From a virus (lineage: Duplodnaviria > Heunggongvirae > Uroviricota > Caudoviricetes), in the IMG/VR virus record IMGVR_UViG_2703718838_000007: 21,262 bases of DNA. One strand, 5' to 3'. Under the pieces are notes generated by a model. It did not search any database and was not told the DNA's origin. It saw only the letters and a program-made list of their open reading frames with translations. A program made the translations under genes and the position numbers. Shown here piece by piece: positions 12,783 to 16,977 of the stretch (position 1 is the first letter of the stretch; every line of letters begins with the position of its first letter).

Positions 12783-12807
12783 AAAAAAATCCCGCCGAAG
12801 CGGGATT
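12783..12807 (-). terminator. Intrinsic terminator ending the accessory cassette
   Basis: On the minus strand, a GAATCCCGC-TTCG-GCGGGATT hairpin followed by seven T, 14 nt after the stop of the 12822..13934 gene. Confidence 0.65.
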
Positions 12808-12821
12808 CATTGGTTATCGAA

Positions 12822-13934
12822 TTATGCAGATTTCATTCGATAAGCAGATAAAGAAACAACATTTTCGGTAGCGATTTCTGGGGCAAAATCTAACGAATTA
12901 TCGTTCGCTAACTCCGCTAACATAGCTGGAGTAATACACAAACGCTTGGCTAATGACTCAACATCAACTGACAGATCCGTTAAGAGAAACTTCATTGCCT
13001 TATGAAATAGCTCTGGCTTTTCATTAGGAATCAAATAATCTTCTTTTTCATCAATGGCTTCCCCCTTGCGCTTTAAACCGAAGAATGCCGTTTTATATTG
13101 GGCATCGGTTAAAAGAGAAAGCTGATGTGCTCTATAAATTGTTGCTGCCTTACTAACTTTCCACGTCAGTTTAAACTGACTTAGCCCCTGCCAGTCGATA
13201 CGACCGCCAATTGGGCGAGGAAAATATTTTGCCATCGCCGATCGGGGTAGAAGCAATGCTGATGCAAAACGGTTAGCTTGAGATTCAGTTACCCGATCCC
13301 CCGTTGAAATACCTTCGTGCAAAATCAAATGTGCAACTTCGTGAGCAATATCAAAACGCTGACGGCAAGGCGATTTTTTAGCCGTATTTCTTACAATGAA
13401 TGGCCGACTTAAAGGAACAGAAAGCGCATCCACATCATCAGAGACAGAATCGAAAGAAGTAACAAATGCTCCCAGCTTTTCAGCAAGACGAGTCATGTTG
13501 TCAATCGGCCCAAAACCTAATCCCCAATCAGCCCGGCATTTCTCAGCGGCTCTTTCTATGTCCTCTTGAGTATTTACTCTCAGTTCAGGAAATCTTACTG
13601 GCGGTAAATTCAAGTACTCATCAAAAACTTCAATGAGACGGCGATACAATTCAGCTTTAGCGAGCGTCGCCCACTTAGTAGCCATACGTGTTGAACTACG
13701 CTTGCGGAAGTGAACGATCTCTTCATTCACTGGAGATTGCTCTTGTACTGCGAAAAATTCAGGCGTGACCAGCAATACGGCAGCTAATTTATTCGCAAGC
13801 TCAGGAGTAGGCACAGCCGAGCCGGATTCCAGCCGCTGAATGTACTGGCGGGTCTTATCGACCCGCTCAGCTACTTGCTCCAGTGATAACTCGTGATACA
13901 GACGAGCCAATCGCAAATTAGAACCGTTAAACAC
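12822..13934 (-). CDS. Fused HTH_XRE / M78 (ImmA/IrrE, COG2856-type) zinc metallopeptidase with a ~100-aa C-terminal extension
   Basis: 370 aa. HTH-like LSLEQVAERVDKTRQYIQRLESG at residues ~15-40; HExxH zinc motif in DIAHEVAHLILHEG near residue 200. GTG start at 13934 with AGGTGA upstream (no in-frame ATG retains the HTH). Confidence 0.7.
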   Translation of the reverse strand: MFNGSNLRLARLYHELSLEQVAERVDKTRQYIQRLESGSAVPTPELANKLAAVLLVTPEFFAVQEQSPVNEEIVHFRKRSSTRMATKWATLAKAELYRRLIEVFDEYLNLPPVRFPELRVNTQEDIERAAEKCRADWGLGFGPIDNMTRLAEKLGAFVTSFDSVSDDVDALSVPLSRPFIVRNTAKKSPCRQRFDIAHEVAHLILHEGISTGDRVTESQANRFASALLLPRSAMAKYFPRPIGGRIDWQGLSQFKLTWKVSKAATIYRAHQLSLLTDAQYKTAFFGLKRKGEAIDEKEDYLIPNEKPELFHKAMKFLLTDLSVDVESLAKRLCITPAMLAELANDNSLDFAPEIATENVVSLSAYRMKSA

Positions 13935-13947
13935 TTTTCACCTACTA

Positions 13948-14541
13948 TTATCCGTTATCGCTTTTCTTTTCCTTTTCAGGAACAGAAGCGCTGATATCAT
14001 CCAGCTCAATCTTAACAGGTGCTGGCGGGGTATCGTCTATAGAATGCAGCACAGTTACCCGTTCTTCGCCATACGTCCATAAAGAGAGCATTTCTTCCAG
14101 CGCATTATAACCCGCAAAATGCACTCGCCCACCTTCACCTTCGAACTCTGGTTTCTCTACAACGAAGCGCCAAATCGTAGGGATTGTATCTTCTGATGCG
14201 AATAACTGATCAACACTATTCTTTCGGAAGAAGTTAGCCTTTTTCGGATTAGTCGGATCATCGCTAAAAGAACGGATTGGGATACCGCCAATAGTGATTG
14301 TGTAATCGTTATTGGGATTAGAAAGCCCTAACCAGTCGTATTTTTTTGACATGCACAGTTTGACGATTCGATTCTTCTGGCGTCCAAAAGTGCATGTTGC
14401 GCGGGTATAATTATCATCAAGCGAAGAAGACAAAAGCTCATGTGTGTCTTCCTGCACTTTAAGGAGTGCCTCCGCAATGATAGATAAGCGTTCTTCGGTT
14501 AACTGCGGATGAAACGTCCAAGGTAATGGGTAATTTTGCAT
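13948..14541 (-). CDS. Hypothetical protein, unrecognised partner of the HTH-peptidase
   Basis: 197 aa, ATG at 14541 with AAAGGAAAG upstream. No transmembrane segment or catalytic motif recognisable by eye. Stop lies 13 nt before the next start; region is AT-richer than flanks by eye. Confidence 0.6.
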   Translation of the reverse strand: MQNYPLPWTFHPQLTEERLSIIAEALLKVQEDTHELLSSSLDDNYTRATCTFGRQKNRIVKLCMSKKYDWLGLSNPNNDYTITIGGIPIRSFSDDPTNPKKANFFRKNSVDQLFASEDTIPTIWRFVVEKPEFEGEGGRVHFAGYNALEEMLSLWTYGEERVTVLHSIDDTPPAPVKIELDDISASVPEKEKKSDNG

Positions 14542-14559
14542 CGGGTCACTTTCCTTTCA

Positions 14560-14618
14560 GTGCAAAAATCAAACTTTGTCAACCGGGATAATGGTGCAGA
14601 ATTTTGATTTTGTCAACT
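14560..14618 (-). promoter_or_regulatory. Promoter with two imperfect ~25-bp direct repeats (operator-like) upstream of the 197-aa gene
   Basis: Minus-strand repeats GTTGACAAA...TGCAC at 14594-14618 and 14560-14584. The distal one gives -35 TTGACA, 17-bp spacer, -10 CATTAT. Lies in the 75-bp gap after the A stop. Confidence 0.4.
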
Positions 14619-16977
14619 AACCCCTGTTAATTTTTACAGCCACTTTCCAACGATTGAGAAGCTCGTCAGATTTTTTCTTAACTGCCATTTTTTCAGATGC
14701 CAATTTATCTACCCCAGATGCTGCGCGGTTGCTGGAAACTAACCGCCCATTTTGCACGGTCAAAACGAGATCGCCGCACGCCACTGACGCACCGGCCATC
14801 ATCGATCTGACCATTCCGGCGCTGGCATCAATCCCACGCAGCGCCAGCAGTTCACTGATCTGCTGCTCTTTCACGGATAGCCCGGCCCTCTCTTCCCGTT
14901 CCGGTGGCCGTTTTTTACGCTTACTTCGCACATCGTTACTAAGCCGCTGCGCCAGTTCTCGCTTTTCCTGCCGTGAAAGCGCATCAAAATTCACCGTCTC
15001 GCCCACTTCGTGATCGGCATGTTCAAGACCGTCTGCACCTGTCGCGGGATCCCGCGTACAGTTATTGACAGAACTCCGAGGGGCGGCGCTGCCGCCTGAA
15101 AAACCAACGTCAACGGCCACACCGTCAGCGCTCTGGCGCTTCGGCACGATTTTGTATTGAGTGGTGCGGGTGAAGATCAAAGAGTCATTGCCCGTAATCG
15201 GGCAGTAAATACCAGTGATTCGCTGGACGTTATCACCGTAGGCGTTGCCGTTTTCAGTGGTTTCATAGTTCAGACGGATGCGCAGCTTATCGCGCTCAAC
15301 CAACGGGCCACCCTGGGCTAATACGTAGTTATCCCATTCGCCACCGTTAGCGGCCTGCCGGGCGGTTTCCAGTTCAGGGTGTAACACCAGTTCGCGATCG
15401 CCCAGGCGGCGAAGTTCCCGATATACCGTGACCGGCGCACCGCCGATCTGCTGAAACTGGCGAATAGCCCAGCGCGATGCCCACGCACTAACGCGGAGTG
15501 ACATTTCTTTCAGGTCTTCCCCAGTTTCGTCGTCCTTCTCACCATCGAGCGCGAAGCCGTCGATATTCTTCGAAATGTATTTCGCTATGTAGCCGGTTGC
15601 GCTGCCGTGGGCATCGTCGATCGGCACAACCTGAAAGCGGTTTTCCTGCGCTCCCGGTTCGTTGCCGTCTTCTTTCAGGGCATATTTACGGAAGATTTCG
15701 CGCGCCTGCTCGACGCATTCCGGGCGCATAAAAAGAAGTAAATGCCAGTGGGGTGTTGCATCGTGGTGCGGTTCGACCACGCGGAAACCAAAGACGCGGA
15801 TCCCTTTTCTCTTCCAAGCTGCGCGGGTTCTCGCCCAGACTTTGCAAAGATATTGCTGCGTCTCGCGCGGCGACGCGCCACAGTATTTATTATTGCGGCG
15901 CCCGTTATGCTGCATGGAGTGGTAACGGGAAGGTGCTGTCAGCGTGTAGAAATCACCGGCCAACCCTTCCAGCTTCGCCAGATCTTCAAAGCCGCGCATT
16001 CTCGTCATGAGTTCGCGGCGACGGTTGGCCGGATTGGCAACACTGCCAGCGACTTTATCGATCAGTGAAATGCGCTCGCCCGTGTCCTGGTCTTCCAGTT
16101 CCATAGCCTTGAGGTATTCACGGTTAGCCTTTTTCTGGGCCAGCCATTCCGTAAGGCACGGGGCGCTACTGTATGGGGAAGATTTTTTCTGGACGTATCC
16201 CGCTGCGATCATCAAATGCTCACGCCACCGGGCATGGATACGGCGCAGGCGGTTTAACCACCACTGCGGTGACTCAAGACGGAGAACCGCGCGTAACGCG
16301 TCCTCCGCTTCAAGTTCTTCATTGCAATATGCTGTCCAACCTGGGATCGGCGTTTTCATATGCACCACCAGCGACGCAATACGGCCATAGCCAGAAAGCG
16401 CCGCGAACTCAGGATCTCCGGTGCGTGCCAATTGGTGATCGGACTCGCGTATAAACTCGCTCGTAAAGATATCGGCAAGCGTATAAGCCAGTCTTTTTAA
16501 CTCTTTCTTCCCTGCCCAGAGCATACGGAACAGCTGATCGCGGATTGGCAGCAGAATGCCGGGCATCACAGTGTCAGGCTGGTAAACACTGTTCACGCTA
16601 TCAATTCGCGTTAATACGTGGCGCTCAAAGGTATTAACCAGCCAGTGATCTGCTGCTTTGCGGTCTTTCGCGTCCAGTGCATCCAGCTTCGCGGCAAAGT
16701 GGCGGCGGACATACTGCGGAAGTGAAGCCAGACGGCGACGCAGCAGCTTGCCGCGCTCCGGCTTTTCGTCTTCCGCTACCAGTTCACTGAACGGAATATG
16801 CTTACGCGTGCCGTCCGGCGTGAGATAGTCGAAACCATCCAGCCCCGGCGCTACATCAACGCCAATCGGCTGGTATGGTTTGTTCCCGCCATAAGCGTAA
16901 GGGATAGCATTGTCAGTGCTACCCGGATACGGTGGAGGTGGAGAAGGGGCGCGACGGCCACGGGTTTCCGTGGTCAT
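14617..16977 (-). CDS. A: Rolling-circle replication initiator (endonuclease) gpA-like
   Basis: 786 aa. HUH-like PHWHLLLF and a paired-tyrosine YIAKYISK motif; size and position match P2 gpA. Confidence 0.85.
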   Translation of the reverse strand: MTTETRGRRAPSPPPPYPGSTDNAIPYAYGGNKPYQPIGVDVAPGLDGFDYLTPDGTRKHIPFSELVAEDEKPERGKLLRRRLASLPQYVRRHFAAKLDALDAKDRKAADHWLVNTFERHVLTRIDSVNSVYQPDTVMPGILLPIRDQLFRMLWAGKKELKRLAYTLADIFTSEFIRESDHQLARTGDPEFAALSGYGRIASLVVHMKTPIPGWTAYCNEELEAEDALRAVLRLESPQWWLNRLRRIHARWREHLMIAAGYVQKKSSPYSSAPCLTEWLAQKKANREYLKAMELEDQDTGERISLIDKVAGSVANPANRRRELMTRMRGFEDLAKLEGLAGDFYTLTAPSRYHSMQHNGRRNNKYCGASPRETQQYLCKVWARTRAAWKRKGIRVFGFRVVEPHHDATPHWHLLLFMRPECVEQAREIFRKYALKEDGNEPGAQENRFQVVPIDDAHGSATGYIAKYISKNIDGFALDGEKDDETGEDLKEMSLRVSAWASRWAIRQFQQIGGAPVTVYRELRRLGDRELVLHPELETARQAANGGEWDNYVLAQGGPLVERDKLRIRLNYETTENGNAYGDNVQRITGIYCPITGNDSLIFTRTTQYKIVPKRQSADGVAVDVGFSGGSAAPRSSVNNCTRDPATGADGLEHADHEVGETVNFDALSRQEKRELAQRLSNDVRSKRKKRPPEREERAGLSVKEQQISELLALRGIDASAGMVRSMMAGASVACGDLVLTVQNGRLVSSNRAASGVDKLASEKMAVKKKSDELLNRWKVAVKINRG

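What the first reader, a model, noticed from the sequence alone, without database searches (positions are those of the whole stretch)
14542..14618. Promoter-like element with two ~25-bp direct repeats directly after the A stop
The 75-bp gap between A and the 197-aa gene holds two imperfect direct repeats, each containing TTGACA; the distal one gives a sigma70-like promoter (TTGACA, 17 bp, CATTAT). The cassette therefore looks independently transcribed and possibly autoregulated by its own HTH protein.
Basis: seen in the sequence. Interest (0 to 1): 0.5.

Follow-up and report, generated by a model that had tools for sequence, protein, structure and literature searches.

The report
Conserved promoter-operator of a RosmerTA cassette
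The two repeats after the phage replication gene are real and belong to the conserved promoter and probable repressor-binding sites of a known toxin-antitoxin anti-phage cassette (RosmerTA), whose control region does not seem to have been described before.

Summary
On the minus strand, two 23-nt units (R1 14616-14594, R2 14582-14560; 34-bp period) fill the 75-bp gap between the stop of P2-type gene A and a 197-aa gene. R1 gives TTGACA-17-CATTAT. The cassette is RosmerTA: RmrT (197 aa) and RmrA (370 aa, XRE HTH plus M78 peptidase). All 41 intact homologous loci found by protein search, from Enterobacterales to Burkholderiales, carry the same pair. TTGAC and GCA are invariant in both units and the interiors are random. 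A -10 (nAnnAT) follows R1 only. R2 covers about +1 to +22. In more distant subfamilies box A (GGTTGACA) stays the same, while box B (TGCAC here) changes, usually in both units of a locus together. That fits a cognate binder, and RmrA's HTH is the only DNA-binding domain the cassette encodes. Best reading: an independent sigma70 promoter whose -35/spacer and start site are covered by tandem RmrA operators (autorepression). This is inferred, not shown. New points: a LexA-box-like palindrome (14624-14639) marks the cassette's left edge inside gene A, and orphan copies of the repeat pair occur in other phages without RmrTA. Known kind, new variant, moderate interest.

The parts
14624..14639 (.). 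LexA-box-like palindrome CTGTAAAAATTAACAG, 7 nt upstream of R1, inside the last codons of gene A; left edge of the conserved cassette in the enteric subclade
   Evidence: It is the only CTGT-N8-ACAG in the window. The same box sits at the same 6-7-nt gap in 15 listed loci, several with unrelated upstream flanks. PWM score is 12.9 bits against 6.5 for the next best site in the window, and 14-26 for most known boxes.
14617..16977 (-). P2-type replication gene A; stop TAG at 14619-14617 abuts R1
   Evidence: Pfam Phage_GPA E 9e-105. The 3' end differs from that of phage SEN5, which is 95% identical elsewhere.
14594..14616 (-). Unit R1, TTGACAAAATCAAAATTCTGCAC: box A 14616-14609 (includes the -35 TTGACA at 14616-14611), box B TGCAC at 14598-14594
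   Evidence: TTGAC and GCA are invariant in 40 of 40 unique loci.
14588..14593 (-). -10 hexamer CATTAT, 17 bp after the -35
   Evidence: The corresponding hexamer has A at position 2 and T at position 6 in 40 of 40 loci and A at position 5 in 32 of 40.
14560..14582 (-). Unit R2, TTGACAAAGTTTGATTTTTGCAC: box A 14582-14575, box B 14564-14560. Covers the predicted start site (about 14579-14582) to about +22. No -10 follows it.
   Evidence: The start-site position is inferred from the -10, not mapped.
14552..14556 (-). Shine-Dalgarno-like AAGGA for rmrT
   Evidence: Read from the sequence.
13948..14541 (-). rmrT, 197-aa toxin of unknown fold
   Evidence: PADLOC RmrT E 1.6e-94, no Pfam hit. AF2 model pLDDT 73.5 with no PDB fold match.
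12822..13934 (-). rmrA, 370-aa antitoxin: XRE HTH (residues 7-61) plus M78 peptidase (151-269, HEVAH)
   Evidence: Pfam HTH_3 E 2.5e-13 and Peptidase_M78 E 4e-17; PADLOC RmrA E 9e-206, with weaker hits to capH and capP.
12787..12808 (-). Intrinsic terminator closing the cassette (GAATCCCGC-TTCG-GCGGGATTT followed by a T run)

Best explanation
The 75-bp gap is the control region of a self-contained RosmerTA cassette (rmrT-rmrA) sitting in the variable slot after gene A of a P2-like prophage. R1 carries a sigma70 promoter (-35 TTGACA, 17-bp spacer, -10 CATTAT). Transcription should therefore start at about 14579-14582, at the beginning of R2. Each 23-bp unit has two recognition boxes: box A (GGTTGACAAA) and box B (TGCAC), 10 bp further on. 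The most likely binder is the N-terminal XRE helix-turn-helix of RmrA, as an oligomer, perhaps together with RmrT. Bound to R1 (-35 to -13) and R2 (about +1 to +22), it would shut out RNA polymerase and keep toxin and antitoxin synthesis low and balanced. Shown here: the repeat, the promoter match, their conservation, and the co-variation of box B. Inferred: the start site, who binds, and that binding represses. A LexA-box-like palindrome at -58 to -43 may add a DNA-damage input in this subclade, but that part is weak.
For: Cassette identity. The antitoxin of the E. coli relative L111 is WP_000481765.1, the accession Rousset et al. give for the E101 antitoxin of a module that makes clpP essential. 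All 41 intact loci found by RmrT protein search carry 2 units (3 units in L040 and L044) at a 33- or 34-bp period directly upstream of rmrT. The only fragment, L047, is a deletion remnant. Among 40 unique loci, TTGAC and GCA are 100% conserved in both units, interior positions 9-13 carry 0-0.9 bits (0-0.4 in R1), and the -10 positions A2 and T6 are 100% conserved after R1 only. The units stay with the cassette in unrelated flanks: parM, hok, and AbiE islands. In subfamilies with 40-54% RmrA identity, box A is kept but box B changes in both units together: TGCAA, AGCAA, AGTCC, AGCAC, GCAT. Within a locus, R1 and R2 are 0.94 identical in box B but only 0.38 in the interior, and 50 of 54 loci are identical at positions 20-23. 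The recognition helix differs by clade in step with the boxes. A motif-only scan of viral contigs gave 57 hits, about 37 of them followed by RmrT plus RmrA, against 2 hits for a permuted control.
Against: There is no experimental start site or binding data, and the papers I could search do not describe Rosmer promoters. About 10 distinct phage contigs carry look-alike pairs with no RmrTA and no RmrA-like HTH in the fetched DNA. The boxes are direct repeats and only weakly dyad-symmetric, which is unusual for XRE dimers. The link between recognition helix and box B has exceptions: L170 and L174 have an HK helix with GCAC. The co-variation rests on few independent lineages (6 classes, permutation p about 0.003). 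No terminator lies between A and R1, so read-through from A can also feed the cassette. In some subfamilies the -10 follows R2 rather than R1 (L105, L151, L174).
Confidence: 0.68

Rival explanations
1. The units are bound by a factor not encoded in the cassette, such as a host regulator or RNA polymerase itself. RmrA's HTH would then have another target or none.
For: Orphan pairs occur without RmrTA in about 10 phage contigs, more than the 2 hits of the permuted control. Box A equals the sigma70 -35 consensus and is invariant even where RmrA has diverged to about 30% identity (L106, L107, L185).
Against: Box B changes between subfamilies that live in the same kinds of host, and it tends to change together with the cassette's own HTH. 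The pair follows the cassette across Gamma- and Betaproteobacteria. At least one orphan (L078) looks like a decayed Rosmer promoter.
Confidence: 0.15
2. This is a plain tandem duplication of a promoter, giving two promoters or one promoter and a dead copy, with no operator function.
For: Each unit starts with TTGACA. In three-unit loci two units are followed by -10-like hexamers, and in some subfamilies the -10 follows R2.
Against: In this family R2 has no usable -10 at a 16-, 17- or 18-bp spacer, yet its boxes are as conserved as those of R1 while its interior is random. A dead copy would decay evenly. Box B is not a known sigma70 element, and it is kept the same in both units.
Confidence: 0.1
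3. This is an RNA-level element: a terminator or attenuator for gene A, or a structured 5' leader.
For: In the window the interiors of R1 and R2 are mutually complementary (12 nt, 92%). The predicted leader pairs with codons about 26-30 of rmrT and buries the ribosome-binding site (-35.8 kcal/mol, z -2.9).
Against: The fold of the intergenic RNA is no better than shuffles (z -0.67), and no terminator is predicted. The R1/R2 complementarity and the leader pairing are confined to the window's nearest relatives (window, L017, weakly L005), while the boxes are universal.
Confidence: 0.04

Closest known systems
RosmerTA (RmrT/RmrA) anti-phage toxin-antitoxin systems (Millman et al. 2022, bioRxiv 10.1101/2022.05.11.491447), and the E. 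coli E101 prophage module that makes clpP essential (Rousset et al., bioRxiv 10.1101/2020.05.25.114553)
   Same: Both proteins match the PADLOC RmrT and RmrA models end to end. The order is toxin first, and the antitoxin combines an HTH with a Zn-peptidase. The E. coli relative with the same repeat pair encodes WP_000481765.1, the E101 antitoxin accession.
   Different: The window's proteins are 62-63% (RmrT) and 76% (RmrA) identical to that relative. The system verified by Millman et al. (E. coli OLC-716) belongs to another subfamily. Its upstream region has a palindrome (ACCTCAAATGAGGT) and no TTGACA repeats. I found no paper describing the promoter or operator of any Rosmer system.
Autoregulated type II toxin-antitoxin operons with HTH antitoxins (e.g. 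MqsRA, HigBA, HipBA; from general knowledge)
   Same: The antitoxin has a DNA-binding domain, and repeated sites overlap the operon's own promoter. The order is toxin first, as in mqsRA and higBA.
   Different: The known operators are palindromes. Here the sites are tandem direct repeats of a two-box unit at a 33-34-bp period, and one box doubles as the -35 hexamer. Binding and conditional cooperativity are untested.
CapH/CapP and ImmR/ImmA (HTH repressor cleaved by an M78 peptidase; Lau et al., bioRxiv 10.1101/2022.04.27.489752; Ernits et al. 2023, PMC10440598)
   Same: RmrA matches both the capH (E 1e-7) and capP (E 1e-18) PADLOC models. This suggests an HTH that represses an immune operon and a peptidase that could relieve the repression.
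   Different: The HTH and the peptidase are one polypeptide here. CapH binds a 22-bp site upstream of the -35, whereas these units cover the -35/spacer and the start site. Self-cleavage is only a hypothesis in the literature.
LexA (SOS) boxes of Gammaproteobacteria, CTGT-N8-ACAG (from general knowledge)
   Same: The core match at 14624-14639 is exact, and it is conserved at a fixed 7-nt distance from R1 in the enteric subclade.
   Different: It lies at -58 to -43, not over the core promoter. It scores below most known boxes in a PWM built from 16 sites recalled from memory. It is absent from the other clades.

Membership tests
RosmerTA defence system | Antitoxin RmrA with a Zn-metallopeptidase (M78, HExxH) domain | tested here: met
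   Pfam PF06114 E 4e-17 over residues 151-269, HEVAH motif in the translation; PADLOC RmrA E 9e-206.
RosmerTA defence system | Adjacent RmrT toxin gene in the same operon | tested here: met
   PADLOC RmrT E 1.6e-94, full length. The rmrT stop and rmrA start are 13 nt apart.
RosmerTA defence system | Toxicity neutralised by RmrA; protection against phage | not testable with these tools
   Only indirect evidence: the E. coli relative shares the antitoxin accession of the E101 module studied by Rousset et al..
Sigma70 promoter | -35 and -10 hexamers at 17 +/- 1 bp, with A2 and T6 in the -10 | tested here: met
   TTGACA-17-CATTAT. A2 and T6 are conserved in 40 of 40 unique loci.
Sigma70 promoter | Mapped transcription start | not testable with these tools
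   No transcript data are available. The start at about 14579-14582 is inferred.
Autoregulatory TA operator | Repeated sites overlapping the operon's own promoter, conserved beyond what the promoter needs | tested here: met
   R2 lacks a -10 but keeps both boxes. The interiors are random.
Autoregulatory TA operator | Site sequence co-varies with the cognate DNA-binding domain | tested here: inconclusive
   Box B classes change in both units together and partly track the recognition helix. There are few independent lineages and two exceptions.
Autoregulatory TA operator | Antitoxin (or TA complex) binds the sites and represses | not testable with these tools
   Needs EMSA or footprinting and reporter assays.
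CapH/CapP-type regulator pair | Separate HTH repressor and peptidase genes upstream of the immune operon | tested here: not met
   The two domains are fused in one 370-aa protein encoded downstream of the toxin.
LexA (SOS) box | CTGT-N8-ACAG core | tested here: met
   Exact match at 14624-14639.
LexA (SOS) box | Overall similarity to known boxes, and overlap with the core promoter | tested here: inconclusive
   12.9 bits against 14-26 for most known boxes (PWM built from memory). The position is -58 to -43.
Intrinsic terminator between A and the cassette | GC-rich hairpin followed by a T run | tested here: not met
   None predicted in 14542-14640. RNA fold z -0.67.

The most novel reading that the evidence does not exclude
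The tandem units form a portable operator code, with an invariant box A and a subfamily-specific box B that keep different Rosmer cassettes regulated independently of each other. The orphan pairs in unrelated phage genomes would then be sites where RmrA-type HTHs act in trans, as decoys or as sensing sites. That would tie autoregulation of the toxin operon to detection of incoming DNA. In the enteric subclade a LexA box would add an SOS input.
Probability: 0.1. Interest if true: 0.7.

Novelty: new variant of a known kind. Interest (0 to 1): 0.42.

Why it matters
How Rosmer systems are kept silent and how they are switched on is still open. A 2025 study of the pneumococcal RipAB system states that autoregulation by the antitoxin could not be excluded (PMC12795458). 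This window gives a concrete, conserved and testable control region: a promoter, two operator units with a constant box and a variable box, and a possible SOS box. It allows simple experiments, namely EMSA, box swaps and reporter fusions. It also offers a sequence signature for finding the start of such cassettes in phage hotspots. The cassette itself is a known type.

Tried and rejected
(1) Terminator or RNA structure for the gap: rejected. The fold is no better than shuffles (z -0.67) and no terminator is predicted.

(2) The complementarity between the interiors of R1 and R2 is not conserved in other loci.

(3) R2 as a second promoter or a leaderless start: rejected. No hexamer with A2 and T6 lies at a 16-18-bp spacer. 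In the Betaproteobacteria the ATG lies 2-4 nt after R2, upstream of any start R2 could direct.

(4) Repeats belonging to gene A or to P2 biology (Cox or C sites, Ogr TGT-N12-ACA): rejected. The pair occurs without gene A, and the palindrome has N8 spacing.

(5) CRP, FNR or sigma54 reading of the boxes: no fit by inspection.

(6) A search for an RmrA-like HTH near the orphan pairs found nothing at E < 5.

(7) RmrT fold: AF2 model of moderate confidence, no PDB match. Sequence search of PDB was also empty.

(8) Confirming the toxin accession of Rousset et al. through cluster members failed. The antitoxin accession was confirmed through RefSeq annotation instead.

(9) A strict rule linking recognition-helix residues (QR or SR versus HK) to the last base of box B does not hold for L170 and L174.

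Full report
**What is at the coordinates.** All genes here are on the minus strand. Gene A (Pfam Phage_GPA, E 9e-105) runs 16977-14617 and ends with TAG at 14619-14617. A 197-aa ORF runs 14541-13948 and a 370-aa ORF runs 13934-12822, followed by a strong intrinsic terminator at 12808-12787.

The 75-bp gap reads, 5' to 3' on the coding strand: TAG TTGACAAAATCAAAATTCTGCAC CATTAT CCCGG TTGACAAAGTTTGATTTTTGCAC TGAAAGGAAAGTGACCCG ATG.

The repeat finder reports the 24-nt direct repeat at 75% identity with a 34-bp period. The promoter scan reports TTGACA-17-CATTAT, 10 of 12 matches. The repeat is not chance. Only 1 of 5000 shuffles of the region reach it, and only 3 of 1060 78-nt windows of the 21-kb window do. 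TTGAC-N14-GCAC occurs twice in the window against 0.18 expected.

**What the cassette is.** The 197-aa protein has no Pfam hit but matches PADLOC RmrT over its whole length (E 1.6e-94). The 370-aa protein is HTH_3 (residues 7-61) plus Peptidase_M78 (151-269, HEVAH). It matches PADLOC RmrA (E 9e-206), with weaker hits to capH and capP.

This is therefore a RosmerTA toxin-antitoxin defence cassette (Millman et al.). The window is a P2-like prophage, 95% identical over 83% of its length to Salmonella phages SEN4 and SEN5. Those phages carry other genes in the same slot after A.

An E. coli relative with the same repeat pair (L111, in a lambdoid prophage next to a hok remnant) encodes antitoxin WP_000481765.1. 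That is the accession Rousset et al. give for the E101 module that makes clpP essential. This ties the family to experimental evidence of toxicity.

**The repeats travel with the cassette.** In E. coli the same two units precede rmrT whether the upstream neighbour is gene A, a parM/parR pair or a hypothetical gene.

A protein-based search with an RmrT alignment gave 43 genome loci from Enterobacterales, Aeromonadaceae, Methylomonas, Burkholderiales, Nitrosomonadales and others, with RmrT identity down to 32%. All 41 loci with an intact 5' region carry two units directly upstream of rmrT, at a period of 34 bp (enterics) or 33 bp (Betaproteobacteria). Two loci, L040 and L044, carry three units. 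The other two loci do not count against this. L045 has no upstream DNA, and L047 is a deletion remnant in which GGTTGACGAT is fused to about codon 37.

Among 40 unique regions:
- TTGAC (positions 1-5) and GCA (20-22) are invariant in both units.
- A7, A8, T19 and C23 are 78-97% conserved.
- Interior positions 9-13 carry 0-0.9 bits (0-0.4 in R1).
- The hexamer after R1 has A at position 2 and T at position 6 in 40 of 40 loci, and A at position 5 in 32 of 40.
- The hexamer after R2 shows no such pattern.

R1 is therefore a conserved sigma70 promoter core. With the -10 ending at 14588, the start is expected at about 14579-14582, which are the first bases of R2. In the Betaproteobacteria the ATG follows R2 by only 2-4 nt, so R2 is essentially the whole leader and cannot itself be a promoter.

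**Evidence that the units are protein-binding sites.** R2 does not need a -35 or anything else for promoter function, yet its two boxes are as conserved as those of R1 while its interior drifts freely.

A search with an RmrA alignment reached subfamilies with 40-54% RmrA identity and RmrT-like toxins of 196-216 aa. They all keep two GGTTGACA(A/G)A boxes 31-34 bp apart, but the second box differs between subfamilies. In most loci it is the same, or nearly the same, in both units:

| Box B in R1 / R2 | Loci |
|---|---|
| TGCAC / TGCAC | the window and most others |
| AGCAC / AGCAC | L174 |
| TGCAA / TGCAA | L150, L014, L016 |
| AGCAA / AGCAA | L152, L159, L160, L163 |
| AGTCC / AGTCC | L156, L161 |
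| GGCAT / AGCAT | L015 |
| TGCCC / TGCCA | L148 |
| ACCGA / AGCGA | L172 |

Within a locus, R1 and R2 are 0.94 identical in box B and 0.93 in box A, but only 0.38 in the interior. That interior value is the same as between loci (0.36). Gene conversion is therefore unlikely to explain the matching boxes. Positions 20-23 are identical in 50 of 54 loci. With one representative per class, 4 of 6 match exactly (permutation p about 0.003).

The only DNA-binding domain that moves with these sites is the HTH of RmrA. Its recognition helix differs by clade in step with the boxes:
- KTRQYIQRLES with TTGACAAA...TGCAC
- VSKQFLSRVET with TTGACGAA...TGCAC
- ...HK(L/V)ET with GCAA, GCCA, GTCC or GCAT

There are exceptions: L170 and L174 have an HK helix with GCAC. 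This evidence is suggestive, not decisive.

**How it most likely works.** RmrA, as an oligomer and perhaps with RmrT, occupies R1 (-35 to -13) and R2 (about +1 to +22) and excludes RNA polymerase. This would be classic negative autoregulation of a toxin-first TA operon.

By analogy with CapH/CapP and ImmR/ImmA, the peptidase domain could relieve repression or release the toxin on a signal. The analogy is to the mode of action, not to membership, because here the two domains are fused. The papers I could search do not describe the promoter of any Rosmer system. The 2025 RipAB paper explicitly leaves autoregulation open.

No terminator separates A from R1, and the RNA of the gap is unstructured (z -0.67). 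Read-through from the phage early operon may therefore add to expression during lytic growth.

**New features around the finding.**

(a) A perfect CTGT-N8-ACAG palindrome (14639-14624) lies 7 nt upstream of R1, inside the last codons of A. It is the only one in the window. The same box sits at the same 6-7-nt distance in 15 listed loci of the enteric subclade. In several of these (L005, L011, L013, L043, L056, L083, L088) the sequence upstream of the box is unrelated. Homology between loci therefore begins at the box, and the C-terminus of A in this phage is encoded by cassette-linked DNA.

In a PWM built from 16 E. coli SOS boxes that I recalled from memory, it scores 12.9 bits. The next best site in the window scores 6.5, and most real boxes score 14-26. 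Its position (-58 to -43) is unusual for LexA repression. I rate an SOS input as possible, not established.

(b) In the window and its closest relative L017, the leader from box B through the ribosome-binding site pairs with codons about 26-30 of rmrT (duplex -24 kcal/mol, z about -3.6 to -4.1; fold of the predicted 5' 141 nt z -2.9). This pairing is not conserved in the family.

**What remains unexplained.** A motif-only scan of viral contigs for the double unit gave 57 hits, against 2 for a permuted control. About 37 hits are followed by RmrT and RmrA. About 10 distinct contigs carry convincing look-alikes with no RmrTA within 3 kb and no RmrA-like HTH in the fetched DNA.

One of them (L078) looks like a decayed enteric Rosmer promoter. 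Another (L054, the same as L092) lies 6 nt beyond the stop of a P2 A-like gene but points into that gene. Others sit between tail genes, next to lysis genes, or upstream of a rusA-like gene. Most lack the -10. They may be remnants, or sites used in trans, or evidence that the binder is not RmrA. This is the main reason my confidence in RmrA as the binder stays below 0.7.

**Other architectures in the wider family.** Still more distant Rosmer systems keep only the duplicated box A at 31 bp (Escherichia phage Tritos, a Zymomonas plasmid, L185). Others use a palindrome instead: an Acinetobacter phage, and the Millman-verified E. coli OLC-716 system with ACCTCAAATGAGGT. In L105, L151 and L174 the -10 follows R2 rather than R1. 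What is constant, then, is a pair of adjacent units, at least one of which overlaps a promoter's -35 and spacer.

**Verdict.** The cassette is a known kind (RosmerTA in a P2 hotspot). The control region is a new variant of a known principle, TA autoregulation. It has an unusual tandem two-box design, a possible SOS box, and unexplained orphan copies. Interest is moderate.

Noticed in passing
window 14624-14639: LexA-box-like palindrome CTGTAAAAATTAACAG inside the last codons of gene A, 7 nt upstream of R1. It is conserved at the same 6-7-nt distance in 15 listed loci and marks where homology between loci begins.
   Followed up: partly
window 14552-14564 with 14453-14465: The rmrT leader (box B of R2 plus the Shine-Dalgarno) can pair with codons about 26-30 of rmrT and bury the ribosome-binding site (fold z -2.9). 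This is seen only in the window, L017 and weakly L005.
   Followed up: partly
L048, L052, L054/L092, L057, L066, L078, L079, L089, L094, L098 (viral contigs): Orphan pairs or triplets of the TTGAC-N14-GCAC unit at a 33-34-bp period, with no rmrT or rmrA nearby and mostly no -10. L052, L094 and L098 share the extension TGCACATTC. They exceed the permuted-pattern control.
   Followed up: partly
window 14617-14720 compared with L192 (phage SEN5): The 3' end of gene A (...WKVAVKINRG*) differs from that of the otherwise 95% identical SEN5. The junction of the variable slot therefore lies inside A, and the cassette supplies A's last codons.
   Followed up: partly
L022 about 1218-2862 and L035 about 1715-2855: In Betaproteobacteria the Rosmer cassette sits back to back with an AbiEi/AbiEii-like pair. 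Their shared intergenic region also holds an inverted repeat, TCAGAA...TTCTGA, conserved across many loci and probably the AbiEi operator.
   Followed up: no
window 13948-14541 (RmrT): The AlphaFold2 model (pLDDT 73.5; two long helices followed by a beta-sheet) has no PDB fold match at E <= 0.001. The suppressor mutation T46S reported for the E101 toxin would fall in the conserved NYTR motif if numbering is shared, which I did not verify.
   Followed up: partly
window 14565-14576 with 14600-14611: The interiors of R1 and R2 are reverse complements of each other (12 nt, 92%). This is not conserved in other loci, so it is probably incidental.
   Followed up: yes
L107 (Escherichia phage Tritos) 1250-1350; L106 (Zymomonas plasmid) 1120-1200: Distant Rosmer cassettes with other toxins also place a second GGTTGACA right after the -10 (31-bp period). 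In Tritos a terminator precedes the promoter.
   Followed up: partly
L047 2990-3040: A deletion derivative in which box A of R1 is fused directly to about codon 37 of rmrT, which makes it a dead cassette.
   Followed up: yes
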